Shown here in pieces: positions 8,199 through 36,134 of a DNA stretch of 64,000 nucleotides. The DNA comes from Candidatus Eiseniibacteriota bacterium (GTDB taxonomy: Bacteria; Eisenbacteria; RBG-16-71-46), in NCBI GenBank assembly GCA_020847735.1, contig JADLBL010000021.1, forward strand, positions 126,059 through 190,058, written 5' to 3'. Every line of letters begins with the position of its first letter. Position 1 is the stretch's first letter. The notes beneath the pieces were generated by a model that made no database searches, was not told where the DNA came from, and saw only the letters and a program-made list of their open reading frames with translations. The translations under genes and the position numbers were made by a program.

Positions 8199-9773
8199 TC
8201 AAGAGGCAGTCGTGCGCGCGGCCAGGCTCTCAAGCAGTGCGGCGCCGCGCGCCAGCGTCAACGCGTGCCTCCGAAGATCCTGCGGGAGCGCGCGCCGGAT
8301 CTCCACTAGCCACTTAGCCGTCCCGGCTCCTGCCGAGGCGAGCCCCGGACTTGGGACACCGGCAGCCTCCGCGAGCATATCGCCGTGTCGGGACAGCGCG
8401 TCAGCGAGCACGTAGCGGTCAGGTGACCGCTTCAGGATCAAGAGGCACTCGGCCAGATGTCGCTCCGCCGTGTGCAGCCTGCCCGCGCGGGCCTCCGTGA
8501 GCGAGAGGTTGGCCAATGTCTGCGCCGTCCCGCGGTCGTCGTGCAACCGCCGCTTGATCGCCAGTGAGCGCCGGAAGTTGATTACCGCGTCGGAGTACCG
8601 CCCCTCGGCCGCACAGGCCTCCCCGACGTTGTTCAGGATCCTGGCCCTCCACACGCGGATTCCCTCCTTGGCCGTACGCCCTCTCCGCGTACGTGCGAAC
8701 CGGGCAATCGCCCGCAGGCCTCGCCGGTAATCCACGAGTGCGCTTCTCGCATCCTGATTCGGGCCCTCGATGGCGAGTAGGCCGCGCAGCACGTAAGCCC
8801 ATGAGAGCGAATCCGCCTCGCGCGGAAGGCGGATCGCGGACTCGCGAAGGGCCGCCGCCAGCAGGCGGGCAGATGGCTCGAATCGCCCCGCCATGCGAAG
8901 GCAGTCCACGGCGATGAACGTGGACTTGAGCCGGGTGTGCGGATCGAGCCGGCGGCGGTACCACGCCAGGACCCGCGGCGCGTCCTCGTAGTGCCCCGTC
9001 CTCGAGGCGAGATTGAGGAGCGCCGCACAGCGCTGGCCCGCGCGCAATCGCACGACCGGCGCGATCCGGGGGCGGGAGGAGGCGCGCTCGCGGCGGGCCC
9101 TCACGCGAAGCAGCGACTCGAGGCTGCCCCGTGCCCAGCGAAAGACCGGCGCGAGCCCCGCCAACGCCCGTGGCGGCTGACCTGCATAACTCAGGAAGCA
9201 GATCTCACGGGGCCTCCCCTCGGCGATCGCCTCAAGCACGTCCTGGTCCCTCGCGGAGTAGCCCAGCACGAAGAGGCGCCCGTCCCGGATCGCCCGCCTG
9301 AAACTCCGCACCGCTCCCGGCACGGTCCGGGCGAGCCGGAAACTGCGGTTCTGGATCCGTGACGGCCGCAGGACCGACCCGTGCAGGTGCACGACGCGAA
9401 GAGCCCGCGCCTGTTCGAAGCAGACATCGAAGTTCGTCGTGAAGACGACGGGGAATAGACCGGCAAGGGCTCTGTGGCAGGCGTTGGGCCGCAAACCAGT
9501 CAGCCGTCCGACCATGAGCGAGTCCAGTTCGTCCGAGGCGAACGAGGAGACGTCCTGCAGGAGGCTCTCGGGTAGAAGTCGCCGGTAGGCCTGCGTGTGC
9601 ATGAGGCTACGAAGCCAGCGCCGCGAGTTGCGATCTGACAACAGTGCCGCGACGCACTCGTCCCTCAGCTTGTCGCCGAGCGGTGCGTTGGTGGGCGCGA
9701 GCCTGGATACGCCGGCGCCACAGAGCACCCATCCTCCAGCCTGCATCCGTTCACGGAACGCGCCCAGCGTCAT
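8199..9773 (-). CDS. SIR2-like (SIR2_2 family) domain protein fused to C-terminal TPR repeats; candidate defence effector
   Basis: N-term motifs GAGVS, TTNFD, HLHGS characteristic of SIR2_2 NADase-like domains; C-terminal half has TPR-like repeats; start taken at MTLGAF (9773). Confidence 0.55.
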   Translation of the reverse strand: MTLGAFRERMQAGGWVLCGAGVSRLAPTNAPLGDKLRDECVAALLSDRNSRRWLRSLMHTQAYRRLLPESLLQDVSSFASDELDSLMVGRLTGLRPNACHRALAGLFPVVFTTNFDVCFEQARALRVVHLHGSVLRPSRIQNRSFRLARTVPGAVRSFRRAIRDGRLFVLGYSARDQDVLEAIAEGRPREICFLSYAGQPPRALAGLAPVFRWARGSLESLLRVRARRERASSRPRIAPVVRLRAGQRCAALLNLASRTGHYEDAPRVLAWYRRRLDPHTRLKSTFIAVDCLRMAGRFEPSARLLAAALRESAIRLPREADSLSWAYVLRGLLAIEGPNQDARSALVDYRRGLRAIARFARTRRGRTAKEGIRVWRARILNNVGEACAAEGRYSDAVINFRRSLAIKRRLHDDRGTAQTLANLSLTEARAGRLHTAERHLAECLLILKRSPDRYVLADALSRHGDMLAEAAGVPSPGLASAGAGTAKWLVEIRRALPQDLRRHALTLARGAALLESLAARTTAS

Positions 9774-10062
9774 CCTGCGAACTCGTCCACCACCAGACCT
9801 GCCATGGGTCATGGTTCTCTCGAGGAGCGAATGATGAGCTGCGAGGACCTTCGCGCGTCACCGCGCGAGCCATTAGTGCTGGCGAGTGCCGTTTGCCCTG
9901 ACTTCAGCAGTTAAGCTGTTCCACGCCGACTGGAAGTTGAAGGGGGCAACCCGGAGAGGACGAGCAAGGCACTACCGAGCAGACACCCACACCAAATGCG
10001 CGTGCTGGCGGCGTCGCGCCTACAAGATGAAGACCCTTAGTATCGCTCCCTGGCGGGCGGTT

Positions 10063-10650
10063 CTAGCACACAACTGACACAGTCGTCGCCCCGCCTCTCG
10101 CCGGCAGTGATAACTTACCCAGAGAGACTGGCCGCAGCTCCAACTCGATGCCGTTGATGATCCATGTCTTCACAAACACCCGAGTGGCACTATCTCGTCG
10201 CTTTGCGACAAGCTCTCGCCTTCCCGGCCAGTCCCGCAGCCACTGCTCGTAGTCACTCACGACAAACGCACAATGCTCGATACCAGGCCGCAGGTCGCGA
10301 GGCGCTTCCCGCAGTTTGGGTTCGAATACCTCTACCAGCGGCATCTCCCACCCACCGCCGCGCAGCGGACGACGTAGGCGCAGTACGCAGTTCCTTCGCC
10401 CGTCGATGCTCTCGCGGCGCACTGGCAGCGCATACGCTCCAACGGTCCGCACGACGTCGTCAAACTCCCGTGCAGACCGCGCCTGCAGTCCGAGATGGTC
10501 GCCTGCGAAGCGCGCGCTTGTGAGGTCCACGCCTTCGAGTAACGCGACCGTCAAGGCCAGTCGCATGTACCGTGACGCACACCGCGCCAGAGTCCTCCAT
10601 GTTGTGATGCCATATATATCCACACCATGCATGTCTACATGATATCGCAC
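10063..10650 (-). CDS. Hypothetical protein, possibly VOC/glyoxalase-like
   Basis: ORF on same strand as SIR2-TPR gene; weak resemblance to VOC fold segments (HLGLQARSAREFDDVV, IEHCAFVVSDYEQW); start uncertain. Confidence 0.3.
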   Translation of the reverse strand: MRYHVDMHGVDIYGITTWRTLARCASRYMRLALTVALLEGVDLTSARFAGDHLGLQARSAREFDDVVRTVGAYALPVRRESIDGRRNCVLRLRRPLRGGGWEMPLVEVFEPKLREAPRDLRPGIEHCAFVVSDYEQWLRDWPGRRELVAKRRDSATRVFVKTWIINGIELELRPVSLGKLSLPARGGATTVSVVC

Positions 10651-10777
10651 ACTGGCGCCCTTGTCCCCGACCCACCGAGCCGCGTGTCGTTCCGCCGATG
10701 GCTAGACAGGGCGGTAGGCGGCGGCTACACTGCTGGATTGCGCGTAACCGGTCGTCAACTGAACACGTGAGGTCGCC

Positions 10778-12022
10778 ATGGCGCAGTGCCGCATTCTCCT
10801 CGTCTGGCCCCCGAAGGTGGAGTACGTCTTCTCAATCCAGAAGCACTTCACCTACTTTGGTGAGACTGCGGCGTTCTTGGGAAGGGAGCCCGATGTCGAA
10901 GTCACCGTCCTCGACGGAACGGCCCTTCAGCACTTCGCTTGGGCGTTCATCGAGGCCTATGCGAGCAAGTTCGACTTCGTGCTCGTCTACACTGACCTGC
11001 ACAACAGCCTCCAGGCCATCCGCGCGGCGCAGGAGTGCAAGCGGATCTCACCGGACTCGCAAGTCGTGTCCTTTGGGGAGGGGACTGCGTTTGCACCACG
11101 CACCTACGTTGAGCACGGTTTTGACGCGGCGATCGTTGACGCCATGTACGAGCGCAGTGCCCTTTCCTACATCCGATGGCGTCGGGGAGATCTCGCGGTA
11201 GATGGGCTGCACGGCGTCGTGTACGCTGATAACGGAGCGGTGCAGGAGTGCCCGCCTCGGCTGCCGATGACGATCGACGACATCGCGTTCCCTGCGTTGG
11301 ACCTGCTTCCGGTGGCACGATATGTCGAGATCAGCGGCCGAAATCAACTGTGCTTCACCGTCGCGCGGGGGTGCCCGTATCGCTGCCCGTTTTGCCGCGT
11401 CCCAGTCGCTCAGGCCGGAGGTGTGGCGTACCGCGATGCTGAGGCGGTGCTTGACTACATGGAGCAGCAGCGCGCGCGATGGAACTCGATGAAGCTCATC
11501 GCCCCGACGTTCACGGCTGATCGGGAGTGGGTGCTAGACTTCTGCAGTCGAGCTGCCGCCCGGCAGTCCGTCGGTAAGTGGATCGTCACGACTCGCCTGG
11601 AACGACTTGACCAGGAACTGCTGAGAGCGATGGCACAGGCTGGCTGCATCGCGATAGCCTTCGGGCTGGAGACCCTGGACGTGCGAACCCAAGAGCGTAT
11701 CGGGAAGCACGTCACCGAGGATGAGCTGAGGAGCCAGGTGGCTCTCATTCACGACGCAGGAATCATTCCCAAGGCGTTCATCATGCTTGGGATTCCAGGG
11801 CAGACACGGAGCGAAGTGGAGGCGACGTTTGCCAAGCTTCGTGAGCTCCGGGTCGAGATTCGACCAAAGGAGTACTATCCGTACGAGGTCTTCTCGGCCG
11901 CAGCCGACCCGATGGCTCTCTTCGAACGCTTCGACCGACAGGGAGTCTACCGGTCCCCGATGCCTGGTGTGACCGCGGCGCAGTTCGTCTCCTGGCTCCG
12001 GGACCGCACGAGTGTCCGCTAG
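10778..12022 (+). CDS. B12-binding domain radical SAM protein
   Basis: N-terminal Rossmann-like B12-binding region followed by CFTVARGCPYRCPFC (CxxxCxxC radical SAM cluster motif). Confidence 0.8.
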   Translation: MAQCRILLVWPPKVEYVFSIQKHFTYFGETAAFLGREPDVEVTVLDGTALQHFAWAFIEAYASKFDFVLVYTDLHNSLQAIRAAQECKRISPDSQVVSFGEGTAFAPRTYVEHGFDAAIVDAMYERSALSYIRWRRGDLAVDGLHGVVYADNGAVQECPPRLPMTIDDIAFPALDLLPVARYVEISGRNQLCFTVARGCPYRCPFCRVPVAQAGGVAYRDAEAVLDYMEQQRARWNSMKLIAPTFTADREWVLDFCSRAAARQSVGKWIVTTRLERLDQELLRAMAQAGCIAIAFGLETLDVRTQERIGKHVTEDELRSQVALIHDAGIIPKAFIMLGIPGQTRSEVEATFAKLRELRVEIRPKEYYPYEVFSAAADPMALFERFDRQGVYRSPMPGVTAAQFVSWLRDRTSVR

Positions 12023-13940
12023 ATTGAAGCGGATCGAAGTCGAGGCGGAGAGCGCACTCGCCGGGTTGGGCGCGTTCTGCGAGACGAGTGTGCTGCACTC
12101 GACGCACGACGGCCACGCCACGGCTGGCTTCTCGCTGGATCTTGCAGGTGGAACGAGGGGCCGAGTGAGCATCGGCGGGGCCTGCTTGGGGTTGTCGCTG
12201 TTCTCCTTCCTCGGCGAGCGCAAGGCGGGGATCGGTGATGCGATCGAGACCTACATCAGGCACCAGTACCTTCCTTGGGGTGGATGGTCGATCACCGCCT
12301 TGCGCCGAGACCGTGTTTCGCTTGTCTATACGACGAGCTTCGCCATGCAGGCCTTGGCGCGGTGGAACCGAGATGGTAACCGTGTGCTCCTACGGGATGC
12401 TTGGGCCTGGCTTCAGAACGCTCAGAACGCGGATGGAGCGTGGGGGCCGTGCCCCGGTGAAGACAGTCACCTCTACCCCACGTGCGAAGTGCTCTTCACT
12501 GCGGCGCTCCTCGGTGATCTGGTGCCACCCGGGGTCGTCAATCGCGCGCTGAAGTGGCTGATGCGGCGCCGAGTGGGACCCTGTTGGACGGACGACTGGC
12601 AGCTCCCTTCAGAGTACCTGACTGCTCTTGCGTACCGAGCCGCGACAGCGCATGGGGTCGAGTTCGACGCGAGAGCATCTCGCCAGTGGCTCCTTGAGCG
12701 ATCACGTGAAGTCGTAGATCGGCGTGAGTGGCGCATGATGATCCCGATCGAGGGAGGTCTGCTTCAGGAGCCGATCTCCGAGTTTCCACGAGCGGCCATC
12801 TTCGACGTCCTGTCGCAAGATCGCCACTCATACAACGAAGCTGGCTTCACCGAGCTTGCGCGATCGCTCCTTGGAGCCCGTGACGCCCTGGGGGTATGGC
12901 GACACCCCCCAGGTGGTCACGAAGCACCGGCCTTCTTGAACTACCACGTCGCGAGCGGCATCGCTGGGCTTCTGCGGAACAAGGGCGCACTGCATCGTTC
13001 GCGCACCGCGGCCCGGTCCGCCGCACCGCTTGGCGATGCGCCGTGGCAGCGGCTCTTGCCGGAGGAGGCACGCGTTCTACGTGAGGAAAGTCTCAACATC
13101 TCGTCGTTCCGTGTCGTCGGCTCGTACGCGAGGTGCGACGACGTTGTTCGTCGCCGACTCACCGACGTGACCACGCAGATGCTGGACGCGGTTAAGCGCA
13201 CAGACAAGTCGCTCGCGAACTACCTGTTCTGGGGTCATCCCGGTCGTGGCAAGAGCTACCTCATCGAGCAAGCGGGGGCATTTGCCTTACGGATTGGAGT
13301 CGCTTCCGCCTTCGAGAAGATCGTTCTGCCAGAACTGGATGAGGCGGGACTCTCCCGCCGACTAGCGGAAACCGGTGGCGCGCACACTAGGTCGATCGTC
13401 CTGATCGACGAATGCGATGGCAAGCTTCATGAGAAGTGGCCGTTTCCTCTACTGCTGCCCTATCTCGAGGCAAGGCAGAAGGGAGGCGGCAGCCGGGTTG
13501 TTGCGCTCGTCGGAAGCTGCGGCGAGAGCATGTCCGCGATGACATCACGGATCACTGAACGCGCGAAGGACGCAAAGGGCCCTGACTTGCTAGACCGCAT
13601 CCCAGAGGAGAATTGGCATGAGATTCCAGATCCTGATGCCGGAGACCGCGTCGTGATATTCCTGAGCCAGATGCTTGCGGTCGCGGCGGAAGAGGGTCGC
13701 CGGGTCACGGAGGTCGAGAAACTCGCACTGCTCTATGTGATGCGACATGCGGGCCTACAAAGTGTTCGACGCCTGACTCAGTGTGCGACCGATGCAGTGC
13801 GGCGCGCGGGAAGCAGTCCTATCGTGTGCTACGACCATCTGTTTGAGCCCGGAGACGACACCAACAAGTCATTCTACAATACGCACATCGCTCTCATCCG
13901 GACTTTGGGTAGGCCCTGCATGCGAGTGGCTGCAGAGTGA
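12012..13940 (+). CDS. Fusion protein: prenyltransferase/squalene-cyclase-like alpha-alpha toroid repeats (N) + AAA+ P-loop ATPase (C)
   Basis: QNADGAWG repeat motif typical of terpene-cyclase/prenyltransferase toroid repeats; C-term Walker A FWGHPGRGKSYL and Walker B IVLIDECDG; start overlaps rSAM stop by 11 nt. Confidence 0.6.
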   Translation: MSARLKRIEVEAESALAGLGAFCETSVLHSTHDGHATAGFSLDLAGGTRGRVSIGGACLGLSLFSFLGERKAGIGDAIETYIRHQYLPWGGWSITALRRDRVSLVYTTSFAMQALARWNRDGNRVLLRDAWAWLQNAQNADGAWGPCPGEDSHLYPTCEVLFTAALLGDLVPPGVVNRALKWLMRRRVGPCWTDDWQLPSEYLTALAYRAATAHGVEFDARASRQWLLERSREVVDRREWRMMIPIEGGLLQEPISEFPRAAIFDVLSQDRHSYNEAGFTELARSLLGARDALGVWRHPPGGHEAPAFLNYHVASGIAGLLRNKGALHRSRTAARSAAPLGDAPWQRLLPEEARVLREESLNISSFRVVGSYARCDDVVRRRLTDVTTQMLDAVKRTDKSLANYLFWGHPGRGKSYLIEQAGAFALRIGVASAFEKIVLPELDEAGLSRRLAETGGAHTRSIVLIDECDGKLHEKWPFPLLLPYLEARQKGGGSRVVALVGSCGESMSAMTSRITERAKDAKGPDLLDRIPEENWHEIPDPDAGDRVVIFLSQMLAVAAEEGRRVTEVEKLALLYVMRHAGLQSVRRLTQCATDAVRRAGSSPIVCYDHLFEPGDDTNKSFYNTHIALIRTLGRPCMRVAAE

Positions 13941-14029: not shown

Positions 14030-14857
14030 TCAGTAGAGCCTCTTCAGCGTGAATCGGCTCCCCTTCAAACGTCCGACGTAGACAGACTTGAAGCTCCGGT
14101 GATGGTCTTGGACGCCCTGCCGTGCCTCCACGATGGCCGCCCGCGAGATCTCGGAGAGAACCGTTTTCACCACGAGAGTGAGCTCCGGCGTCAGATGGCC
14201 GTGCCGTTGACGCTTTGTTGCAACGGCTGGGAGCACCTCCTCGTGAAGCTCCGGAATCCGGCAGCCGAGTCGGTCATCCCCGGAGACCAGAGCGCGGGCC
14301 GCGCGACGCGTGCTGTCCGCGTGGACAGTCACGTCTGAGAGCGCGGCAGCCACGGGGTCCGCGTACGGGTGGCGCCCGGCTCGCAGGGCGACCATCGGGG
14401 CTTCGATGATCGGGGTTCCGTGCACGATGTGGTCGCGCACGCGCTGGGCGAGTTCCTTTCCGAGTGTCTGACGCTCGCGGCGGGTCGTGGGCAGGCGTCG
14501 GCCGCGAAGCGACACCCCTAAGCCGGAGACTCCAAGCTGGCGGAGCTCACCGTCCAGCGCGTGGCGAACGTCGCGCAGTTCGGCGCCGGCCATCGCCATC
14601 CGTTCGGGAACGACTTGCGCGTGGCTCACGCGCCGGAGGAGAGCACCGCTTCGATCACGGGCTTCGATGTCCCAGCGCTCACTCCTCGACGAGATGTCCA
14701 CGCAGACCACCGGCCGCCGGAGTTCAAGTGGGAGGACGCGTTCGAGGGCGCGACACAACGCCGCCGCAGTTGTCGGGTCAAGATCGGCCATGTCGCTGGT
14801 CCTCCATACCGCCCAGTCCGCGGTCTGGGTTGGCCCGGGCGCATGTGGGCTCGACAC
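14030..14857 (-). CDS. Hypothetical protein
   Basis: Long ORF convergent with the rSAM operon, same strand as and immediately downstream of the MTase gene; no recognisable motifs. Confidence 0.4.
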   Translation of the reverse strand: MSSPHAPGPTQTADWAVWRTSDMADLDPTTAAALCRALERVLPLELRRPVVCVDISSRSERWDIEARDRSGALLRRVSHAQVVPERMAMAGAELRDVRHALDGELRQLGVSGLGVSLRGRRLPTTRRERQTLGKELAQRVRDHIVHGTPIIEAPMVALRAGRHPYADPVAAALSDVTVHADSTRRAARALVSGDDRLGCRIPELHEEVLPAVATKRQRHGHLTPELTLVVKTVLSEISRAAIVEARQGVQDHHRSFKSVYVGRLKGSRFTLKRLY

Positions 14858-14903
14858 TAGTGAAGACTTGCGGAGCTCACGAGCGAATCGACCGTGAGCG
14901 CAA

Positions 14904-16634
14904 TCACTTCCGTTCCAGATGGCCCGTTCGCTGGTTCACCGAGAAGCCGAGCGAGCGCAGCGTTGCGAGCACCTCGCTTAGGTGAAGCGACTCGAGGTCG
15001 ATGTCCCGCCGCACAGCCGCGCGAATCACGTGAAGGTACGCGGTGCTCGGCGTGCGCAGGTCCTTCGCTCCAGCGGCGCTGAGGATCTCGGCGATCGTCT
15101 CGCGCGCCGAACTGACCCGCTTCGCTCGTGGGTGGATGGCCTTCATGTCCTTACGGAGCGTGATCACTAGGTCGGCTGTCACGACGTGCTCAGTTCCGCT
15201 GGCGAGTCCCTTGACCGAGCGCTGGCCCTTGTCGAGAAGGGCCGTCTCGTCGGGTTCGATCGCGAACCCGCTGGTCCGGATGGCGCGCTGCAGCATGGCC
15301 CAGACCTCGCCGCGGCTGTTCGAGAAGACGATTGAAACCGCTCCGCCTGGCTTCAGTACTCGTGCGCACTCGCGGAGTGCGCCTGTGAGGAGCTCTTCAT
15401 AGGCCCTCGCCGACTGCACGTGCTTGGAGCGCTCGGTCTGGACCACCGCTTCCTTCCGTGGATCGGTGACTTCCCCAAGCCAGGCTTCCTGAAAGAGGCT
15501 CATGTCGCTGTAGAAGAGGTTGCTGCCGAAAGGCGGATCGGTGAACACGTAGTCGATGGATCCGTCTGGCAGGTGCATCAATGCATCGGCGGACGCTGTC
15601 GTGTATCGGACACGTGAGGGGCGGTTGAAGAGCGTGTCCGCACCGGATTCCTCGAGCAGGTGTTCTTGGGCGCGGAGCGCTGCCGAGACCTTCCGCTCGA
15701 AGAGCTCGAAGATGTTCCACTCGTAGAAGACCGGCGCGATGTAGTAGGTCTGGTTCTGCGCGTTGAGCGGCCGCTTCGGGTGCCACTGGTAGCGCTTCGA
15801 CGCCCGCGGCAGGATGGCCGTGAACGCAAAGAGGAGCTTGCCGCGCAGGCCCTCGTCCTCGACCGCCAGGATCGCTTGATGGAGGGCGGTCAAGGCCACA
15901 GCGTTGCGGGGGGAGAAGAAGCTGGCCGTGGAGGTGTTGCCGTGCCGGCCGAGCGCAGAGCGCCGGTACATCTCCCGGTCCTCCTCAATCGGCAGGTTCG
16001 GGGTGAGCTTGCGCAGGGGGCTGCGTGCGGCGCTGGCGCCGAGGCGCAGGTCTTCCGGCGCGAGAGGACGCGGCTCCTTGTTGCCGCACGCAGTGCAGGT
16101 CACGTACATGAGCACCGGCCGCTCATCGATTCGCTGTGCGCGACGCTTGTCGAATCGAACGTGGCAGGCCGGGCACCTACCACCGCTTTGCCATCGGTTG
16201 GCCGCTAGCAAGTCGTAGTACGGAACCTCGGCCTGGCAGGCCGGGCAGGCGTAGACGAACGACCAGACGATCTTCCCAAAGGGAGACTGCTGCCCGCATG
16301 CGGCACAGGCGGCCAAGTAGTACTTCCCCGTCTTCGCCTCGGCTTGCTCCACCACTCTGGCGGCCGCGCGCCGAAAGCCCGCCGGATCGACGATGTTCAG
16401 AAGGTTCCGGCCGATGTGCTGCCCTAAGACGCTGATGTCACTCAACTCGGCGTTCCGGCCCAGGATGTGGGCCGCCACACCAGTCATACCCGATCCAGCG
16501 AAGGGATCGAGGACCGTATCCCCGGGCCCCGTGTGGCGCTCGAGGAACGGCCGGATAGCGGCTTCGGGAACCTTGGTCAGGTAGCCGTGGGCGTTGTAGA
16601 TCGGGTCCGTGCGTGGCGCGACGATGAGGTTCAT
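14904..16634 (-). CDS. DNA (amino) methyltransferase with internal zinc-ribbon insertion; M subunit of C-controlled Type II R-M system
   Basis: Motif I VLDPFAGSGMTG near N-term, motif IV FTDPPFGSN later (gamma-type order); four CxxC pairs between them; divergent from C-protein gene. Confidence 0.8.
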   Translation of the reverse strand: MNLIVAPRTDPIYNAHGYLTKVPEAAIRPFLERHTGPGDTVLDPFAGSGMTGVAAHILGRNAELSDISVLGQHIGRNLLNIVDPAGFRRAAARVVEQAEAKTGKYYLAACAACGQQSPFGKIVWSFVYACPACQAEVPYYDLLAANRWQSGGRCPACHVRFDKRRAQRIDERPVLMYVTCTACGNKEPRPLAPEDLRLGASAARSPLRKLTPNLPIEEDREMYRRSALGRHGNTSTASFFSPRNAVALTALHQAILAVEDEGLRGKLLFAFTAILPRASKRYQWHPKRPLNAQNQTYYIAPVFYEWNIFELFERKVSAALRAQEHLLEESGADTLFNRPSRVRYTTASADALMHLPDGSIDYVFTDPPFGSNLFYSDMSLFQEAWLGEVTDPRKEAVVQTERSKHVQSARAYEELLTGALRECARVLKPGGAVSIVFSNSRGEVWAMLQRAIRTSGFAIEPDETALLDKGQRSVKGLASGTEHVVTADLVITLRKDMKAIHPRAKRVSSARETIAEILSAAGAKDLRTPSTAYLHVIRAAVRRDIDLESLHLSEVLATLRSLGFSVNQRTGHLERK

Positions 16635-16684
16635 AGTGTCTTGCTGCCCAAGTGGTTAGGTTGAACGTGCGGGGGCAGATGTGT

Positions 16685-16713
16685 AACTTATAGTCTGTAG
16701 ACGTATGTGTGTC
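16685..16713 (+). promoter_or_regulatory. C-box operator (AACTTATAGTC-TGTA-GACgtatgtgtGTC) in MTase/C-gene divergent promoter region
   Basis: Matches the canonical C-protein operator architecture GACTnnnAGTC-TGTA-GACT...; overlaps the start region of the C gene. Confidence 0.6.
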
Positions 16714-16732
16714 AAGCACCTACCGTGCAACC

Positions 16733-16996
16733 ATGCCGCGAAGCCCCCTGCCGCGATCGGGTTCCCCTACCACCCCGCAAGTCCTTGTTGGCCACAATAT
16801 CCGCCGCCTGCGCGTTAGCGCCGGGCTGTCACAGGAATCCTTGGCTTCGCTGGCCGGACTCCACCGGACCTATCTGAGTTCCATCGAGCGGGGTGAGCGG
16901 AACCTCACTGTGGCCAACATCTACCGCATTGCCGCGGCCCTCGGCGTCGACGCCAGGGATCTCTTGGCGCCGATCGGGCGGAAGGAGACGCGGTAG
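16733..16996 (+). CDS. Controller (C) protein, XRE-family HTH transcriptional regulator
   Basis: HTH LSQESLASLAGLHRTYLSSIERGERNLTVANIYRIAAALG; about 87 aa; preceded by C-box; stop overlaps start of downstream REase gene (TAGTG). Confidence 0.75.
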   Translation: MPRSPLPRSGSPTTPQVLVGHNIRRLRVSAGLSQESLASLAGLHRTYLSSIERGERNLTVANIYRIAAALGVDARDLLAPIGRKETR

Positions 16997-18468
16997 TGGC
17001 GCTGAAGGCCAGCGAGAGCTTCATCCGCTACGTCACGATGGGCGCGGCCAGCGCTCACCGGGCCGTCGAGCTTCTCAACCAGCGCGGCCACGACGTCCGC
17101 GAGCTCGAGCGCTACGCCACCTGCAACAAGATCTGGCAGACGAAGATCAAGCGCCTGCGCATGCCGGACCTCTCTTGCCTGCGTTGCGGTCGGCGGTTCG
17201 AAGTTCGCGCGAAGACGAAGCTCGAAATCAAGATGAGCGACAGCCCGACCGTGGCCGGTCGCGAGTGGGATGCCGGGCTCCGCGACGAGGACGTGGTCAT
17301 CTTCGTGCGCTGTGACGGCCAAGCCACGCCGCCAACTCCCGCCGAGCAGATCGCTGGCTTCGAGGTGGGGCAGCTGCGGGCCTGCGTCGACCGTTCGCGG
17401 CTCGGACCTCCGAAATCAGCGGGAGAAGGGGCCGAGCGAGATCGGACATGGCCCGCGATTGTCCCTTCCTCGAGCGGCCATGTGCTGTTCGTCGGGGACG
17501 AGAAGATCTCTCTCCGGCTCGACACTGGCCGACAACAGACGTTCCAGTTGCGTCGTCGTGGGGCTGAGCTGCTGACTCCCTACGTCGGTGTCGGCGAGCG
17601 CATCCAAGGCGAGGTGCAGTTCCTAGCCGGCGCCCCGGCTCGACCAGCGTCGCTTGATTGCAGCGGCGGCGCCTGGGATCCCGTGCGCGGGCTGACCGAG
17701 AACGACACCATGAATCGCTTCTCGGCCGTCAAGGCGGCCGGACTTCTGCAGCGAGCCGATGCGGCCGACGCATTGCTTACCATCGCCCACACCGATCCCG
17801 ATCAGCGCGTTCGACTGGAAGCCGCTGGCAGCTTGCTGCGGTTGAGTCATCCGGGTGCTGCCGATGCAGTGCTGGTGCATTTCGATGCGCCCGAGCGGCC
17901 CGACCTCCGCATGGAGAGTGTGCTGCTCGTTGGCGAGGTACGCACGACGGCCGCCAAGAGCCTGCTCGAAACGATGCTGGGCCGACTAGTGGTGGGCACC
18001 GAGGAGGAGCTTCGTGCCGCGATTATCTGGTCCCTCGGCCTGTGCGGAGCCGGCGATGTGATTGTTCCGTACCTCAGCGATCCTTCCGACAGCGTGGCCG
18101 GACACGCTGCCGTCGCGCTTGGTGCACCGCTGTCCTCCTCGATTCGCGCTCGGCTGATCGCTGTTCTGGCCTCCGGCGATACGCGTGCCGTGGCCAGTGC
18201 TGCTTGGGTGCTGACCCGTGACGGAACGGACGTGGTCGGGCCGCTGTTGGAAGCCAGCCAGGATCCCACCGTGCGGGGCTGGGTCGTCTCCATTCTGGGC
18301 CGTCGCTCTCCCGCGGAGATCAGCCCGCGCCTCGAGGCGTACCCCGAGATAGGTCAACTCGTCGCTCCTTGGTGGAACCTTTGGCCAGGCAGCAACTGGT
18401 CGTCGGCTCCTGAAGGTGTGCGGGTACTGCAGGACTTGGCTCAGCAAGAGATCTTTCAGGCCATCTGA
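16996..18468 (+). CDS. Putative Type II restriction endonuclease: N-terminal PD-(D/E)XK domain + C-terminal HEAT/PBS-lyase-like repeats
   Basis: MPD...(19 aa)...LEIKM fits a PD-ExK signature; position downstream of C gene with 1-nt overlap (classic C-R operon); C-terminal repeats (AAGSLLRLSHPGAADAVL, SLGLCGAGDVIVPYLSDPSDSVAGHAAVALG) resemble HEAT repeats. Confidence 0.55.
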   Translation: MALKASESFIRYVTMGAASAHRAVELLNQRGHDVRELERYATCNKIWQTKIKRLRMPDLSCLRCGRRFEVRAKTKLEIKMSDSPTVAGREWDAGLRDEDVVIFVRCDGQATPPTPAEQIAGFEVGQLRACVDRSRLGPPKSAGEGAERDRTWPAIVPSSSGHVLFVGDEKISLRLDTGRQQTFQLRRRGAELLTPYVGVGERIQGEVQFLAGAPARPASLDCSGGAWDPVRGLTENDTMNRFSAVKAAGLLQRADAADALLTIAHTDPDQRVRLEAAGSLLRLSHPGAADAVLVHFDAPERPDLRMESVLLVGEVRTTAAKSLLETMLGRLVVGTEEELRAAIIWSLGLCGAGDVIVPYLSDPSDSVAGHAAVALGAPLSSSIRARLIAVLASGDTRAVASAAWVLTRDGTDVVGPLLEASQDPTVRGWVVSILGRRSPAEISPRLEAYPEIGQLVAPWWNLWPGSNWSSAPEGVRVLQDLAQQEIFQAI

Positions 18469-18661
18469 GCACCACCAATGCGTCTTGCTCCACGAGGCCC
18501 GTCGGCCTCGTCGACGAACTGCGGCCGTGCTATCATGCGTCCAGTATGCCATTTAGGCCGCCTCGCCCTCATCACACCACTGCTCAGTTTCCGTCTTCGA
18601 GGGTCTTGGAGTCGGCGCGCCTCGTGGGCACATGGGCATTTCTCCAAGGAGGGCGAAGTCG

Positions 18662-20110
18662 ATGAGCAGCAGCTGGTCCACCAAACGCTTCCCCGTCGCA
18701 AGCCTTCACTTGGACAAGAAGAACCCTCGGCTCGGCCGCGAGACGCTTGCGAGCGCTCCCCGCGAGATCATTCAGTACCTGTTTGACCACGACAAAGCAC
18801 TCGAGGTGGCTGACAGCATAGCGACTCGGGGGTTCTTTCCGAACGAGCCCTTGCTTGCGGTCAAAGAGGACGGTCGGCTGGTGGTCGTCGAGGGCAATCG
18901 ACGGCTTGCGGCCCTGAAGGCGCTTCGCGAACCGGGACTTCTCACCGGGTCCTCGTCTCGCCAGGTTGAACGTGTCGCTCGCAAGCTTACCGATCCGCAG
19001 TCCATCCTTACCGTGCCGGTCACGATTGCCCCCAACCGGCGCGCAACAGATCGGCAGATTGCAGGGCGACACATCGGAACGCCGGTGCTTGCGTGGCAAG
19101 CTGAGAACCGGGCGAGCTTTATTCTCGACAAGCTTGAGGAGGGGTACTCGAACGATCAGCTCAAGGACGAACTCGGCTTTACGTCCTCAGACATACAGAA
19201 CGCGCGACAGACGAGGGCGATCGCGGAGATGGCGCGGTCGCTCGAACTCTCCGACGAAGTCAAAGCCAAGCTTGAGAGTCCGAGGGCCAAGGTCTTCACC
19301 ACACTTGAACGTGTCTTCGACTCCTCCGTCGGCCGGGAGTACTTGCGCGTGCAGCCCGATCTGGATCATGGGATTCGGGGGACGACGTCAAGGTCGGAGT
19401 TCCAGCGCGCGTTCACGAGGTTGGTGACAGACGTTGCGCTTGGTAAGCAATCGTCACGCACACTCAATAGCGCCGACAACATCCGCGACTACTTTGAGTC
19501 GTGGAAGCCGGGTGAACTGCCGGCGGCAAAGCAGGGGGCCTTTGTTCCCGCAGATATCATTCAGGGTCGCTCAGTCGCTTCCTCGCCGAGACGAACCGCC
19601 GCCGCCACTCCGACGAGTCGCACGAAGCAAGTAACCCCCTATGTATTGCCGCGTGACCTGCGCGTGCGAATCAACAATCCCCGTCTGATCGACATCCGCA
19701 GCGAGCTCGTCAAGCTCGATCGGAGCAAGTTCCCCAACGCCGGGGCGGTGCTCCTGCGCGTGTTCCTCGAGCTATCGGTCACGGACTACTTGAAGCGCAC
19801 TGGCGAAATGGACTCGCTGGTCAAGAGGCTTCGGGAGATGAACGCTCTGCGGTACGGCACTCCAACGATGAAGCAAATGCTCCCGGAGATCATCCGAATC
19901 GCCAAGGCAAAGCTCCCGGCAGGAGAGGCGCTGAAGGTCGAAAAGGCACTCACCTACAACCCGGCCGCGGCATTCTCCATCAGCGAGCTCCATTCGTTCG
20001 TGCACGACACCGACGTGCCGAGCGAGCGCGATATCTGGCAGTTCTGGATGCGAACACAGGCGCTATTCAGGCTCATGCTCGAAGACGACGTAAAGAGCGC
20101 GAAGCCGTGA
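18662..20110 (+). CDS. ParB/Srx-like nuclease domain protein with uncharacterised C-terminal region
   Basis: DGRLVVVEGNRRLAALKAL matches ParB N-terminal GxRR motif; AAGGAGG RBS before ATG 18662. Confidence 0.65.
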   Translation: MSSSWSTKRFPVASLHLDKKNPRLGRETLASAPREIIQYLFDHDKALEVADSIATRGFFPNEPLLAVKEDGRLVVVEGNRRLAALKALREPGLLTGSSSRQVERVARKLTDPQSILTVPVTIAPNRRATDRQIAGRHIGTPVLAWQAENRASFILDKLEEGYSNDQLKDELGFTSSDIQNARQTRAIAEMARSLELSDEVKAKLESPRAKVFTTLERVFDSSVGREYLRVQPDLDHGIRGTTSRSEFQRAFTRLVTDVALGKQSSRTLNSADNIRDYFESWKPGELPAAKQGAFVPADIIQGRSVASSPRRTAAATPTSRTKQVTPYVLPRDLRVRINNPRLIDIRSELVKLDRSKFPNAGAVLLRVFLELSVTDYLKRTGEMDSLVKRLREMNALRYGTPTMKQMLPEIIRIAKAKLPAGEALKVEKALTYNPAAAFSISELHSFVHDTDVPSERDIWQFWMRTQALFRLMLEDDVKSAKP

Positions 20111-20964
20111 AGACGAGTAGCCCCCTACGATATCCAGGCGGCAAGTCAGCGATGGCCGGCCTCCTAGGTGGGATCCGCCGACTCAATGGTCTGGGGGCGC
20201 TATCCCTTGCCGAGCCTTTTGGCGGCGGCGCGGGTGCTTCCCTGACCCTCCTCTATCAAGAGGAAACGCCGGAGATCTTCATCAACGACGCTGACGACTC
20301 GATCCACGCATTCTGGTGGTCAGTTCTGAATCGCCCTCGCGAGTTCCAGCAGACGCTCAAGAGCACTCGCGTCAACATGACCGAGTGGCGAAGACAGCGC
20401 ATCATCTACCGACAAGCGACGCGGCAGTCCCGGCTGCGTAAGGGCTTCGCAACCTTCTACCTGAACAGATGCAACCGGTCCGGGATCATCGCGAACGGCG
20501 GTCCGATCGGTGGGATTGACCAAGCCGGACCCTGGCGACTATCGGCACGGTACAACAAGGACACGCTGCTCGATCGCTGTAAGAAGCTCGTCGAGTACCG
20601 AAGTCGCATCCATGTATCCGGCCTGGATGGTCTAGAGTTCCTATCTCGGCTCGACCAATCATCTACGATGCTGTTCATCGATCCGCCGTACTACGAGAAG
20701 GGGAGGACTCTCTACCTGAACGCGCTCAGTGACGCCTACCATGAGTCACTGGCGCAATGGCTCAAGAGTAGGAAGAACGTGGCGTGGGTCGTGACATACG
20801 ACGACTGCGACGCGATCCGTCGTCTCTATCGCGGCTGGGCTACCGTCCGGCCTTTCTCGTTGAGGTACACGGCGACGGAGCGTCGTAGCGGTCGGGAGCT
20901 ACTCATCACGCCGAAGTGGCTTCGCCTTCCGCGTAAGCAGGCATCGGAAACGATCGCTTGGTGA
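20107..20964 (+). CDS. Dam-family (D12 class) N6-adenine DNA methyltransferase
   Basis: LRYPGGK motif near N-term and IDPPYY motif IV; GTG start overlaps upstream stop (GTGA). Confidence 0.85.
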   Translation: MKTSSPLRYPGGKSAMAGLLGGIRRLNGLGALSLAEPFGGGAGASLTLLYQEETPEIFINDADDSIHAFWWSVLNRPREFQQTLKSTRVNMTEWRRQRIIYRQATRQSRLRKGFATFYLNRCNRSGIIANGGPIGGIDQAGPWRLSARYNKDTLLDRCKKLVEYRSRIHVSGLDGLEFLSRLDQSSTMLFIDPPYYEKGRTLYLNALSDAYHESLAQWLKSRKNVAWVVTYDDCDAIRRLYRGWATVRPFSLRYTATERRSGRELLITPKWLRLPRKQASETIAW

Positions 20965-22216: not shown

Positions 22217-22250
22217 CGAGCTTCGGTCGATCGAGCAGTAGCGCGCACAC

Positions 22251-24749: not shown

Positions 24750-24891
24750 GCTGGAAGCACACCACCAATCGTCTCGTCTGTCCAGAGGCGCTGTCGTTCG
24801 GGAAGCTCGAGGAATCCGCGTGAGGCAATCGCCACTCACGGGCCTGAGCTCGTCGCCGGAGAGACTGCCGCTATAGCGCTAGTCCGTCTCC

Positions 24892-26547: not shown

Positions 26548-26594
26548 GTGGCGGTGAGGTTGCCATTCAGCAATTCCTCAAGACGGCGCTCCGG

Positions 26595-26879: not shown

Positions 26880-26980
26880 GTGCAGGGGGTGGGAAGCACG
26901 GAACCACGGCAGCCCTGTGGACGGGCGCGCACGTCTCCCGACCGCCTGGGCATCGTCGCCGGAGCGTGTACGGTCTGAAC

Positions 26981-27322: not shown

Positions 27323-27456
27323 CAGGCGGGTATGAAGACGAGTCGGCCGTTCGCACCGGGATCGACCATGCGGCTTGGACGGAATCACAAGTCGCGGTAG
27401 GGTAGGGCCTCAGGCAGAAGGTCCTCGCATTCTCGTGCTGGGTCCCTACCCGGAGG

Positions 27457-36100: not shown

Positions 36101-36134
36101 TCCGTCCCGTGGACGGAGGACCGAGGCCTGACCA

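What the first reader, a model, noticed from the sequence alone, without database searches (positions are those of the whole stretch)
10778..13940. Translationally coupled B12-radical-SAM + (terpene-cyclase-like toroid / AAA+ ATPase) gene pair: candidate undescribed system
A B12-binding radical SAM enzyme (CxxxCxxC) overlaps by 11 nt a 642-aa protein that fuses squalene-cyclase/prenyltransferase-type QNADGAWG toroid repeats to a P-loop AAA+ module (GHPGRGKSYL, LIDECDG). I do not recognise this architecture or pairing from any described pathway or defence system. It sits on low-G+C acquired DNA between a SIR2-TPR gene and a complete R-M system. No precursor-peptide ORF is obvious, which argues against a RiPP cluster. 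Such a pair could modify a nucleotide, lipid or peptide substrate in an ATP-gated way, as the radical-SAM enzyme does in viperin-like defence.
Basis: partly seen in the sequence, partly recalled or inferred. Interest (0 to 1): 0.8.

Follow-up and report, generated by a model that had tools for sequence, protein, structure and literature searches.

The report
Radical-SAM plus toroid defence-island gene pair
A radical-SAM enzyme gene and an overlapping gene for a terpene-cyclase-like ring protein (here fused to an AAA+ ATPase) form a rare, conserved, undescribed pair that sits among anti-phage genes in unrelated bacteria, so it is a credible candidate for a new kind of immune system.

Summary

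New findings:
- The conserved unit is rSAM plus toroid. The toroid gene follows the rSAM gene in 10 of 11 informative loci (host GC 0.30-0.67), often with the same 11-nt or a 4-nt overlap.
- Elsewhere the toroid ends in two transmembrane helices. Only this Candidatus Eisenbacteria genome carries the AAA+ module, which in other proteins is fused to STAND-TPR proteins.
- The toroid lacks DxDD, zinc-ligand and thioester motifs, so it is probably non-catalytic.
- Neighbours vary but are often defence genes: pAgo+SIR2, a retron RT, TIR and R-M elsewhere; SIR2-TPR, PD-Lambda-5 and Shango here.
- Some loci add a thymidylate-kinase-like gene and a 2H phosphoesterase, which points to nucleotide chemistry, as with viperin and CMPK2.
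- There is no precursor peptide, no PADLOC/NCBIfam family and no literature.

"B12-binding" and "complete R-M" are unproven. Function is inferred, not shown.

The parts
10703..10731 (+). Promoter-like site in the 128-nt divergent intergenic region upstream of the rSAM gene
   Evidence: Consensus scan: 2 sites found against 0.5 expected. The partner site on the minus strand (10667-10639) faces the YecM-like gene. This is a consensus match only.
10778..12022 (+). Radical-SAM enzyme gene (414 aa), first gene of the pair
   Evidence: ORF. Pfam Radical_SAM 2.8e-20. Fourteen homologues at 41-53% identity. Annotated in NCBI as MCC6350194.1 'radical SAM protein', Candidatus Eisenbacteria.
10778..11272 (+). 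N-terminal Rossmann-type, B12-binding-like domain of the rSAM enzyme (about aa 1-165)
   Evidence: NCBIfam class-B-like models (HpnJ, HpnR, ArsL, CUAEP) align from about residue 40-60 onward. The family profile hits the OxsB Rossmann region at 2e-4. PF02310 matches only 2 of 14 members. Cobalamin binding is unproven.
11372..11395 (+). CxxxCxxC [4Fe-4S]/SAM motif (C199, C203, C206: CPYRCPFC)
   Evidence: Direct reading. Invariant in 14/14 members, and C87, C192 and C290 are invariant as well.
12012..12022 (+). 11-nt overlap between the rSAM stop and the partner's GTG start (translational coupling)
   Evidence: The same 11-nt overlap is seen in L005 and L098, and a 4-nt overlap in L102 and L106.
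12012..13940 (+). Partner gene (642 aa): toroid, linker and AAA+ fusion
   Evidence: ORF. The identical protein occurs on 5 contigs from 4 sequencing runs, so the fusion is not an assembly artefact. AF2 model pLDDT 88.5.
12012..12986 (+). α/α-toroid domain (aa 1-325), terpene-cyclase-like and lacking catalytic motifs
12987..13037 (+). Disordered interdomain linker (aa 326-342)
   Evidence: The only segment with pLDDT below 50 in the model.
13038..13937 (+). Classic-clade AAA+ ATPase module (aa 343-642)
13233..13256 (+). Walker A (GHPGRGKS, aa 408-415)
   Evidence: G-K are invariant in the module alignment A3.
13395..13412 (+). Walker B (IVLIDE, aa 462-467)
   Evidence: D-E are invariant in A3. 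The SRH-like DLLDRIP at aa 525-531 has a conserved Arg.

Best explanation
The two genes are one operon and one functional module that is probably an anti-phage or anti-mobile-element system working by viperin-like logic.

Shown:
- Gene 1 is an intact radical-SAM enzyme with a Rossmann-type, B12-binding-like N-domain. It is strongly conserved, with mean pairwise identity of 54% across hosts of GC 0.30-0.67.
- Gene 2 is a terpene-cyclase-like α/α toroid without any known catalytic motif, and it is less conserved (37%). Its C-terminus is exchangeable: two transmembrane helices in the canonical form, a classic-clade AAA+ ATPase here.
- The pair travels alone between very different, frequently defence-rich neighbourhoods.
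- In a subset of loci it is joined by a thymidylate-kinase-like gene and a 2H phosphoesterase.

Inferred:
- The rSAM enzyme uses a 5'-deoxyadenosyl radical to convert a nucleotide or ribosyl-phosphate compound into a modified product that interferes with phage replication. A dehydration of the AprD4 or viperin type is the most economical guess. Where a kinase is present, it supplies the substrate.
- The toroid binds the enzyme stoichiometrically (translational coupling) and acts as a non-catalytic regulator or sensor. It decides when or where the chemistry runs.
- The canonical tail tethers the complex to the membrane. In this window the AAA+ module replaces the tether with an ATP-dependent oligomerisation or remodelling switch.
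For: - Conserved pairing. The toroid gene is immediately downstream of the rSAM gene in 10 of 11 informative independent loci, 7 of them full length, with conserved 11-nt or 4-nt overlaps.
- No other gene is universally conserved and no small ORF is conserved.
- Defence neighbourhoods. In the window: SIR2-TPR, a methyltransferase, PD-Lambda-5 A and B, PDC-S32, PDC-S06, Shango SngABC and PDC-S15. In L102: pAgo_II 1.9e-194 plus Aga_SIR2 1e-118. In L101: a retron-type RT at 2.6e-50. In L005: PDC-S35 TIR 3.5e-79, PDC-S31 and R-M. In L098: a NACHT protein.
- The pair has a lower GC than its surroundings in the window, L005 and L098.
- Nucleotide hint. A 2H phosphoesterase with both HxS/T motifs lies directly after the toroid in L103, L106 and L009 (33-41% identity). 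A thymidylate-kinase-like gene is present in L103 and L106 (46% identity, 1e-70). L101 has a P-loop kinase-like AAA_17 gene and L009 an AA_kinase gene.
- Precedent. 12% of bacterial viperins have a nucleotide kinase within 3 genes, and CMPK2 supplies CTP to viperin (bioRxiv 10.1101/2023.09.13.557418).
- The closest solved rSAM relative is the sugar diol-dehydratase AprD4 (8.4e-21). The next-nearest sequence relatives sit in nucleoside or aminoglycoside-type clusters.
- The toroid lacks catalytic motifs.
- The AAA+ module is a promiscuous terminal module fused to STAND-TPR, PNP-type effector and hydrolase domains.
Against: - There is no experimental evidence of any kind.
- The sample is small, about 11 loci, mostly short metagenomic contigs. 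Defence enrichment is therefore anecdotal: 4 strong and 1 weak case out of 9 loci with usable flanks, with no background statistic.
- The kinase and the 2H gene are absent from the window and from most loci.
- Similarity to AprD4 is mainly in the generic rSAM core. ApyD (RiPP), PhpK and HpnJ score similarly, so the substrate class is not determined.
- A terpene-cyclase-like barrel with a membrane anchor is a more natural fit for a lipid than for a nucleotide.
- The rSAM is not related to viperin beyond the superfamily.
- Nothing shows that the two proteins interact.
- One locus (L007) has the rSAM without a toroid.
Confidence: 0.4

Rival explanations
1. Second-messenger immune system of the CBASS, Pycsar or Thoeris type. 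On infection the rSAM enzyme makes a small signalling molecule. The toroid's central cavity is the receptor. The C-terminal module (a 2-TM hairpin, or AAA+ here) is the cell-killing or arresting effector. The 2H phosphoesterase, where present, degrades the signal to prevent autoimmunity.
For: - The layout is an enzyme gene followed by a gene for a ligand-binding domain fused to an exchangeable output, and the 2-TM to AAA+ swap fits that.
- The toroid has no catalytic motifs but keeps conserved polar residues such as YTT106-108, N139, E159 and N310.
- 2H enzymes are typical nucleotide-signal phosphodiesterases (own knowledge), and one sits directly after the toroid in 3 loci.
- The AAA+ module occupies effector-like N-terminal positions in STAND-TPR proteins.
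Against: - No radical-SAM enzyme is known to make an immune second messenger.
- α/α toroids are not known signal receptors.
- Translational coupling and 1:1 stoichiometry suit a complex better than an amplifying signal.
- The AAA+ module lacks an obvious aromatic pore loop in the A3 alignment (my reading), so an unfoldase-type killing activity is doubtful.
- The very high conservation of the rSAM says little either way.
Confidence: 0.15
2. Not immunity. This would be a mobile, niche-specific lipid or isoprenoid-modifying pair. The membrane-tethered toroid extracts a polyprenyl or hopanoid-like lipid from the inner leaflet and presents it to the rSAM enzyme for methylation, cyclisation or cross-linking. 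Its presence in defence islands simply reflects residence in variable genomic islands.
For: - The best sequence and fold matches of the toroid are isoprenoid-binding class II cyclases.
- The canonical partner is membrane-anchored with a cytoplasmic toroid.
- Several NCBIfam hits of the rSAM are lipid-modifying B12-like enzymes: HpnJ, HpnR and the ladderane rSAM.
- L098, L103, L106 and L009 have few or no recognised defence neighbours.
Against: - No isoprenoid or hopanoid biosynthesis genes accompany the pair in any locus.
- The catalytic DxDD motif is absent.
- The window variant has lost the membrane anchor, which such a mechanism would need.
- The accessory genes that do recur are nucleotide-type (kinase, 2H) and not lipid-type.
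- The family is extremely rare and patchy: 1 of 185,579 species genomes.
Confidence: 0.2
3. RiPP-type peptide maturation. The rSAM enzyme modifies a ribosomal peptide and the toroid acts as a LanC-like cyclase or scaffold.
For: - The top NCBIfam hit is the RiPP enzyme ApyD (1.6e-22, far below its cut-off).
- LanC cyclases are α/α toroids (own knowledge).
Against: - No conserved small ORF lies within 1.2 kb on either side of the pair in 10 loci.
- The toroid has no conserved Cys/His zinc ligands.
- No RRE, SPASM, protease or exporter genes are conserved.
Confidence: 0.04
4. The pairing or the fusion is an artefact, either a chimeric assembly or a frameshift-created fusion, or the two genes are merely adjacent by chance.
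For: - The AAA+ fusion is seen in only one organism.
- The data are metagenomic.
Against: - The identical 642-aa ORF is on 5 contigs from 4 independent runs and in an NCBI MAG.
- The model folds into two confident domains with a clean linker.
- The rSAM-toroid adjacency recurs in 10 of 11 loci with conserved overlaps.
Confidence: 0.02

Closest known systems
Prokaryotic viperins (pVips) with associated nucleotide kinases (viperin/CMPK2)
   Same: - It is a radical-SAM enzyme in defence islands.
- A subset of loci has an adjacent NMP-kinase-superfamily gene: thymidylate-kinase-like in L103 and L106, against 12% of bacterial viperins with a kinase.
- Its closest solved relative, AprD4, performs a sugar dehydration that, from my own knowledge, is chemically analogous to viperin's.
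   Different: - It belongs to a different rSAM clade. It has an N-terminal Rossmann/B12-like domain that viperin lacks, and it hits no viperin model in PADLOC or NCBIfam.
- It has an obligate toroid partner, which viperins do not have.
- No product is known.
AprD4-type and other 'class-B-like' radical-SAM enzymes (AprD4, ArsL, OxsB, HpnJ, PhpK)
   Same: The architecture is a Rossmann-type N-domain followed by the rSAM core. The best PDB hit is AprD4 6fd2 at 8.4e-21, and OxsB matches over the N-domain at 2e-4. NCBIfam hits range from 1e-22 to 1e-8.
   Different: - All scores are far below the family cut-offs (for example 70 bits against 500 for AprD4), so it is not a member of any named family.
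- There are four extra conserved Cys (87, 192 and 290 invariant; 256 in 13 of 14).
- Cobalamin use is unknown; AprD4 and ArsL do not bind it (PMC12931638).
Class II terpene cyclases (squalene-hopene cyclase, drimenyl diphosphate synthase, the single-barrel 8paj/8pak proteins, MstE)
   Different: - No DxDD general-acid motif is present anywhere in the family.
- It is a single barrel.
- Sequence identity is 15-19%.
- It is paired with an rSAM enzyme and carries a 2-TM or AAA+ tail.
Thioester domains of α2-macroglobulin, complement C3/C4/C5, TEP1 and CD109
   Different: It has no CGEQ thioester motif, is cytoplasmic, and has no macroglobulin domains.
Two-gene signalling defence systems (CBASS type I, Pycsar, Thoeris)
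   Same: The operon logic is an enzyme gene followed by a gene for a binding domain fused to a swappable output, often a 2-TM segment.
   Different: The enzyme class, the binding fold and any signal are all unrelated or unknown. No component hits their PADLOC models.
PADLOC candidate PDC-M51 (component A is a roughly 420-aa radical-SAM protein)
   Same: It is the only PADLOC model hit by the rSAM (2.8e-9, 34 bits). The core sits at the same position in a protein of the same length.
   Different: The match covers only the rSAM core (182-346). The partner protein hits no PADLOC model at E<=0.01, and no paper mentions PDC-M51.
PhnJ/PhnPP step of the C-P lyase pathway (own knowledge, not tested)
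   Same: A radical-SAM reaction on a ribosyl phosphate gives a cyclic phosphate, which a DUF1045-type 2H phosphoesterase then opens. DUF1045/2H genes follow the toroid in 3 loci.
   Different: No other phn genes are present, the rSAM is not PhnJ-like, and the window has no 2H gene.
Classic-clade AAA+ ATPases (Cdc48/VAT, FtsH, Vps4; CBASS TRIP13/Cap6)
   Different: - It is a single AAA domain of about 285 aa with family-specific N- and C-terminal elements.
- It has no obvious aromatic pore loop.
- It is an unnamed family, with only generic NCBIfam hits and almost no PADLOC coverage.

Membership tests
Radical SAM superfamily | CxxxCxxC cluster motif within a partial TIM-barrel core recognised by PF04055 | tested here: met
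   PF04055 at 2.8e-20 over residues 195-352. C199/C203/C206 are invariant in 14/14 members.
Class B (cobalamin-dependent) radical SAM enzymes | N-terminal cobalamin-binding Rossmann domain recognised by PF02310 | tested here: inconclusive
   The window protein has no PF02310 hit even at E<=10. Two of 14 family members hit it, best 2.6e-5. The profile hits the OxsB N-region at 2e-4. The domain is Rossmann/B12-like.
Class B (cobalamin-dependent) radical SAM enzymes | Actual binding and use of cobalamin | not testable with these tools
   The closest solved relative, AprD4, and ArsL homologues cluster with B12-rSAMs but do not bind cobalamin (PMC12931638).
Prokaryotic viperin (pVip) | Sequence membership in the viperin family (PADLOC/NCBIfam viperin models) | tested here: not met
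   The only PADLOC hit is PDC-M51A. No viperin model appears among 21 NCBIfam hits.
Prokaryotic viperin (pVip) | Production of a 3'-deoxy-3',4'-didehydro-NTP chain terminator | not testable with these tools
   This needs enzymology. There is only an indirect hint from kinase and 2H neighbours.
Class II terpene cyclase | α/α-barrel fold with QW repeats | tested here: met
Class II terpene cyclase | DxDD general-acid motif | tested here: not met
   A regex search over 7 family members found no conserved DxDD or DDxxD. The invariant YTT sits at the start of an inner-ring helix, the position type where SHC carries its DxDD motif; this equivalence is my extrapolation from the alignment, not an aligned match.
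Prenyltransferase β-subunit / LanC cyclase | Zn2+ ligands (Asp/Cys/His or Cys/Cys/His) in the barrel centre | tested here: not met
   There is no invariant Cys or His in toroid alignment A1. Matches to GGTase-II β are weak (E=0.0066).
Thioester domain (α2M/complement) | CGEQ thioester motif | tested here: not met
Classic-clade AAA+ ATPase | Walker A, Walker B and second region of homology with an Arg finger | tested here: met
   GHPGRGKS at 408, IVLIDE at 462 and DLLDRIP at 525 with a conserved Arg. PF00004 matches 60 of 64 homologues. VAT/Cdc48 at 2.4e-10.
Classic-clade AAA+ ATPase | Aromatic-hydrophobic-Gly pore loop 1 for substrate threading; hexamer formation | tested here: inconclusive
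   No such motif is visible between Walker A and B in alignment A3. This was judged by eye only, and oligomeric state is not testable here.
RiPP biosynthetic rSAM system | Adjacent conserved precursor peptide gene, usually with an RRE or SPASM domain | tested here: not met
   No small ORF is conserved within 1.2 kb of the pair across 10 loci. No RRE or SPASM hits.
PADLOC candidate system PDC-M51 | Both components match the PDC-M51 models | tested here: not met
   Component A matches at 34 bits over the core only. The partner has no PADLOC hit.
Defence-island gene (guilt by association) | Significant enrichment next to known defence genes across many genomes | tested here: inconclusive
   Known defence genes lie within a few genes in the window, L005, L101 and L102, plus a NACHT protein in L098, out of 9 loci with flanks. 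The sample is too small and there is no background model.

The most novel reading that the evidence does not exclude
This would be a second radical-SAM-based immune system, evolutionarily independent of viperin. A Rossmann-domain rSAM enzyme performs radical chemistry on a nucleotide. A catalytically dead terpene-cyclase-like toroid has been recruited as its sensor or receptor subunit, much as thioester-domain toroids were recruited in animal immunity. The toroid carries plug-in outputs: a membrane hairpin or an AAA+ motor. The same unnamed AAA+ module would then be a general output or switch module of STAND-type conflict proteins.
Probability: 0.3. Interest if true: 0.85.

Novelty: categorically new. 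Interest (0 to 1): 0.7.

Why it matters
Viperin is currently the only well-understood radical-SAM arm of antiviral immunity, and it is shared by bacteria and humans. A second, unrelated rSAM module in defence islands would widen the chemistry known to be used against viruses, possibly with new antiviral nucleotide analogues. It would give the first immune role to a terpene-cyclase-like toroid in bacteria. It would also assign a function to two uncharacterised families: the toroid-2TM proteins and a widespread unnamed AAA+ module found on STAND-TPR proteins. Even if it proves not to be immunity, it would define a new rSAM-toroid enzyme-partner pair with unknown chemistry. The claim is directly testable with one small operon.

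Tried and rejected
- **Single-sequence AF2 of the 642-aa protein.** pLDDT was 36.6 and the model was useless.
- **Word-indexed homologue search with the 642-aa protein.** It found only the protein itself. A search with the toroid profile added only 2 full-length relatives.
- **Combined alignments A5 and A7.** MAFFT slid the toroid family onto the AAA region, so they were discarded after inspection. A8 was verified to be in register before use.
- **Viral contigs.** All 80 loci held generic rSAM proteins at 32% identity or less, with no toroid and no family member.
- **tblastn against plasmids and phages.** No match.
- **Genome collection.** Only the Kapaibacterium MAG was found.
- **Precursor-peptide search.** Only marginal hits appeared; those on the rSAM strand are upstream extensions of the rSAM frame and the rest are short low-scoring matches. 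The 1-kb gene-less gap upstream in L098 has no convincing ORF.
- **YecM/VOC-like gene at 10063-10650 as a third component.** Rejected, because it is absent from every other locus.
- **Literature.** Six searches for the pair, PDC-M51 or SQHop_cyclase in defence found nothing relevant. The Kaur et al. 2020 conflict-systems paper mentions an rSAM effector only in an unrelated FtsH-vWA-MoxR system. No paper was found for the 8paj/8pak structures.
- **AFDB50 fold search.** The library was not available.
- **PADLOC and NCBIfam census of AAA+ module proteins.** No named family emerged.
- **Distant rSAM relatives P0019 and P0020.** They sit in biosynthetic clusters without a toroid, so they give only a weak hint about substrate class. 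P0028 was not on record.

Full report
**1. What is in the sequence**

The window carries two plus-strand ORFs at the stated coordinates: 10778-12022 (414 aa, ATG) and 12012-13940 (642 aa, GTG). They overlap by 11 nt. A promoter-like pair lies in the 128-nt divergent intergenic region upstream, with 2 sites found against 0.5 expected. No terminator-like site lies at the junction of the two genes; the single match in the region (12306-12320) falls inside the partner ORF and is no more than the shuffled controls give. The identical 642-aa product is encoded on five contigs from four sequencing runs. The rSAM protein is in NCBI as MCC6350194.1, "radical SAM protein", from a Candidatus Eisenbacteria MAG. 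The fusion is therefore real and not an assembly artefact.

**2. Gene 1, the radical-SAM enzyme**

- Pfam Radical_SAM matches at 2.8e-20 over residues 195-352.
- The cluster motif CPYRCPFC (C199/C203/C206) is invariant in all 14 close family members. C87, C192 and C290 are also invariant, and C256 is present in 13 of 14.
- NCBIfam gives many hits to Rossmann-plus-rSAM ("class-B-like") families at 1e-22 to 1e-8. These include ApyD, AprD4, PhpK, HpnJ, BzaD, the ladderane rSAM, BchE and ArsL. All are far below the curated cut-offs, so the protein belongs to none of them.
- The family profile's best solved relative is AprD4 (6fd2, 8.4e-21). The N-domain aligns weakly to the OxsB Rossmann region (2e-4).
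- PF02310 (B12-binding) is not detected in the window protein and is found in only 2 of 14 members, best 2.6e-5.
- A 2026 review states that AprD4 and ArsL homologues cluster with B12-rSAM enzymes but do not bind cobalamin (PMC12931638).

"B12-binding-like N-domain" is accurate. "B12-binding" is unproven.

**3. Gene 2, the partner**

On the single sequence, Pfam sees only sub-threshold squalene-cyclase repeats. An exhaustive phmmer scan of 1.84 billion representative proteins gave 457 hits. Nearly all cover only residues about 355-625, and four proteins of about 420 aa cover residues about 27-323. The protein is therefore a fusion of two independently evolving modules.

An AlphaFold2 model was built from a checked 15-sequence alignment. 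It has a mean pLDDT of 88.5, with confident domains at 1-325 and 343-642 and a disordered linker at 326-342.

The fold searches gave:

A toroid family profile hits squalene-hopene cyclase at 2.9e-19 through repeated QW-like hairpins. The family has no conserved DxDD, DDxxD or CGEQ motif and no invariant Cys or His. It therefore lacks the catalytic signatures of terpene cyclases, prenyltransferases, LanC and thioester domains, and is most simply read as a binding domain.

The AAA+ module has Walker A (GHPGRGKS, 408), Walker B (IVLIDE, 462) and an SRH-like DLLDRIP motif (525). PF00004 matches 60 of 64 homologues, and the profile hits VAT/Cdc48 at 2.4e-10. I saw no aromatic pore loop in the alignment.

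**4. The conserved unit is rSAM plus toroid, and the fusion is the exception**

The rSAM has a tight family of 411-418 aa at 41-53% identity to the window protein. I combined neighbourhood look-ups with a local HMM scan of every fetched locus. Together they show a toroid gene immediately downstream of the rSAM gene in 10 of 11 informative independent loci:
- Full length in 7: the window, L005, L098, L101, L102, L103 and L106.
- Frameshifted in 1: the low-coverage contig L009.
- Cut by the contig end in 2: L012 and L016.
- Absent in 1: L007.

The junction is an 11-nt overlap in the window, L005 and L098, and a 4-nt overlap in L102 and L106. It is a 6-nt gap in L101 and a 128-nt gap in L103.

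In every other locus the partner is about 416-428 aa: the toroid followed by two hydrophobic helices at about 350-370 and 395-413. The window protein has none of these helices and carries the AAA+ module in their place. No AAA+ fusion was found outside this organism.

Mean pairwise identity across the seven complete loci is 54% for the rSAM and 37% for the toroid. Host GC ranges from 0.30 to 0.67. The pair is lower in GC than its surroundings in the window, L005 and L098. The family is very rare:
- one hit among 185,579 species genomes, the Kapaibacterium MAG;
- six hits among JGI metagenome contigs, one of them (L017, 20% identity) a distant relative rather than a family member;
- none in viral contigs, plasmids or phages.

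**5. The AAA+ module**

Among 145 homologues the roughly 285-aa module is C-terminal in 94, N-terminal in 34, standalone in 14 and internal in 3. Its fusion partners are mainly STAND NTPases (AAA_16, NB-ARC, NACHT) with TPR arrays. Others are a PNP/phosphorylase effector-type domain, α/β-hydrolases and an FGE-sulfatase domain. It has no named NCBIfam family and almost no PADLOC coverage. It is thus an undescribed, promiscuous terminal module of the kind seen in conflict and signalling proteins. Here it has replaced a membrane anchor.

**6. Context**

The window pair lies in a low-GC stretch (0.60-0.65 at 10-25 kb). This stretch belongs to a defence island of roughly 30 kb:

| Coordinates | Strand | Feature |
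|---|---|---|
| 8199-9812 | - | SIR2-TPR |
| 14904-16634 | - | Type II / PglX-like methyltransferase |
| 14030-14857 | - | Unassigned 275-aa ORF next to the methyltransferase |
| 16709-16996 | + | HTH protein |
| 16996-18468 | + | HEAT-repeat protein |
| 18632-20964 | + | PD-Lambda-5 A and B |
| 21359-22216 | + | PDC-S32 / AbiJ-like |
| 22251-24839 | - | PDC-S06 |
| 24892-26547 | - | Large serine recombinase |
| 28678-34473 | + | Complete Shango SngABC |
| 35225-36100 | + | PDC-S15 / FRG |

. No tRNA gene is present.

Homologous pairs sit next to the following genes:
- L102: a class II pAgo (1.9e-194) with its SIR2 partner (1e-118).
- L101: a retron-type reverse transcriptase (2.6e-50).
- L005: PDC-S35 TIR (3.5e-79), PDC-S31 and R-M genes.
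- L098: a NACHT protein.

Nothing but the pair is shared by all loci. This is classic guilt by association, but the sample is small and I have no background statistic.

**7. Accessory genes give a chemical hint**

An all-vs-all comparison of neighbouring ORFs found two recurrent extras, once antisense shadows of the pair itself were excluded.

- A 2H phosphoesterase (Pfam 2_5_RNA_ligase2/DUF1045, with both HxS/T motifs intact) lies directly after the toroid in L103, L106 and L009, at 33-41% identity.
- A thymidylate-kinase-like gene (EGIDGxGKSTQ) is present in L103 and L106, at 46% identity and 1e-70.

L101 has a small P-loop kinase-like gene (AAA_17) after the toroid, and L009 has an AA_kinase-family gene upstream. 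The window has none of these.

Nucleotide kinases next to a defence rSAM have a precedent. CMPK2 feeds CTP to viperin, and 12% of bacterial viperins have a kinase within three genes. CMPK2 belongs to the NMP-kinase superfamily that includes thymidylate kinases (bioRxiv 10.1101/2023.09.13.557418).

From my own knowledge, not tested here:
- AprD4 and viperin both perform radical dehydrations of a sugar diol.
- A DUF1045-type 2H enzyme (PhnPP) opens the cyclic phosphate made by the rSAM enzyme PhnJ.

The next-nearest rSAM relatives (26-31% identity) lie in nucleoside or aminoglycoside-type biosynthetic clusters without a toroid. All of this points, weakly, to a nucleotide or ribosyl-phosphate substrate and away from a peptide or a lipid.

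**8. Mechanism**

I favour a viperin-like defence module (confidence 0.4).
- The rSAM enzyme makes a modified nucleotide.
- The non-catalytic toroid is its stoichiometric regulatory or sensor subunit.
- The C-terminal module sets localisation or activation: a membrane hairpin normally, and an ATP-driven AAA+ switch here.

What is shown is the anatomy, the conservation, the domain swap, the contexts and the accessory genes. What is inferred is the defence role, the substrate class, the interaction and the role of each tail.

The rival readings are:
- a CBASS-like signal, receptor and effector system (0.15);
- a mobile lipid or isoprenoid-modifying pair unrelated to immunity (0.2);
- RiPP maturation (0.04), since no conserved small ORF and no zinc ligands were found;
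- an artefact (0.02).

**9. Comparison and novelty**

The pair is not a member of any family I could test:
- It is not a viperin.
- It is not in any named class-B rSAM family.
- It is not a catalytic terpene cyclase, prenyltransferase, LanC or thioester domain.
- It is not PDC-M51; the rSAM hit is core-only at 34 bits, and the partner has no hit.

Six full-text literature searches found no description. The components are known folds. The pairing, the toroid-2TM family, the AAA+ module family and the fusion are undescribed. I rate it categorically new as a system, with the caveat that its function is inferred only from context.

**10.

"Undescribed", "defence context", "no precursor" and the viperin analogy stand. 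The emphasis on the AAA+ fusion, the "B12" label, the "cyclase-like" enzyme reading and the "complete R-M" claim need correction.

Noticed in passing
window 28678-34473 (+): A complete Shango system: SngA (TerB_N/TerB/TerB_C, 4.9e-86), SngB (BrxC/D-like ATPase, 6.9e-182) and SngC (DEAD helicase, 3e-265).
   Followed up: partly
window 18632-20964 (+): A PD-Lambda-5 system: component A (492 aa, 1.1e-46) overlaps component B (D12-class methyltransferase, 2e-93). L005 also has a D12 methyltransferase and a ParB_N gene just upstream of its rSAM-toroid pair.
   Followed up: partly
window 14030-18468: A methyltransferase (14904-16634, minus strand; MTase_II 2.7e-109, PglX-like 1e-78) is flanked by a 275-aa ORF with no family (14030-14857), an HTH protein (16709-16996) and a 490-aa HEAT-repeat protein (16996-18468). 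No nuclease was identified, so the 'complete R-M' label is unverified. This may be a different methylation-based system.
   Followed up: no
window 8199-9812 (-): A SIR2_2 plus TPR protein (537 aa) sits at the left edge of the island, with weak similarity to pAgo-associated SIR2 models.
   Followed up: no
window 21359-27388: This stretch holds PDC-S32/AbiJ-like (21359-22216), PDC-S06 AAA_13 ATPase (22251-24839, minus strand) and a large serine recombinase (24892-26547, minus strand). Two ORFs with no family follow (26780-27388 and 27385-28479). The recombinase sits in the middle of the island, which suggests the island is composite or mobile. No tRNA gene is present in the window.
   Followed up: no
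window 35225-38281: An FRG-domain protein matching PDC-S15 (35225-36100, 2.6e-29) and a DUF5677 protein (37325-38281) lie at the right end of the low-GC region.
   Followed up: no
window 10063-10650 (-): A YecM/VOC-fold protein (195 aa, 6.3e-8) is transcribed divergently from the rSAM gene and shares its intergenic region. It is absent from all homologous loci, so it is probably not part of the module.
   Followed up: yes
proteins P0091-P0239 (homologues of window aa 343-642): An unnamed classic-clade AAA+ module of about 285 aa accounts for most of the 457 hits in 1.84 billion representative proteins (145 of the 149 other hits listed). It is almost always at a protein terminus. It is fused to STAND-TPR, PNP-phosphorylase, α/β-hydrolase and FGE-sulfatase domains and to several families of about 1200-1400 aa with otherwise unknown domains. 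It has no NCBIfam or PADLOC family.
   Followed up: partly
L007 10001-11239 and 16455-21239: This is the only locus where the family rSAM has no toroid downstream. The same contig carries a second, distant rSAM-like gene next to an SNF2 helicase and a ParB_N protein.
   Followed up: no
L098 7680-8764: A roughly 1.1-kb stretch without a convincing ORF lies directly upstream of the rSAM gene. The same gap is seen in L099. It could hold a non-coding RNA or a regulatory region.
   Followed up: partly
L106 4374-5360; L102 6457-7155: Further unassigned genes follow the module: a 328-aa ScmC-like protein after the 2H gene in L106, and a 232-aa protein with N-terminal TM helices after the toroid in L102.
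   Followed up: no
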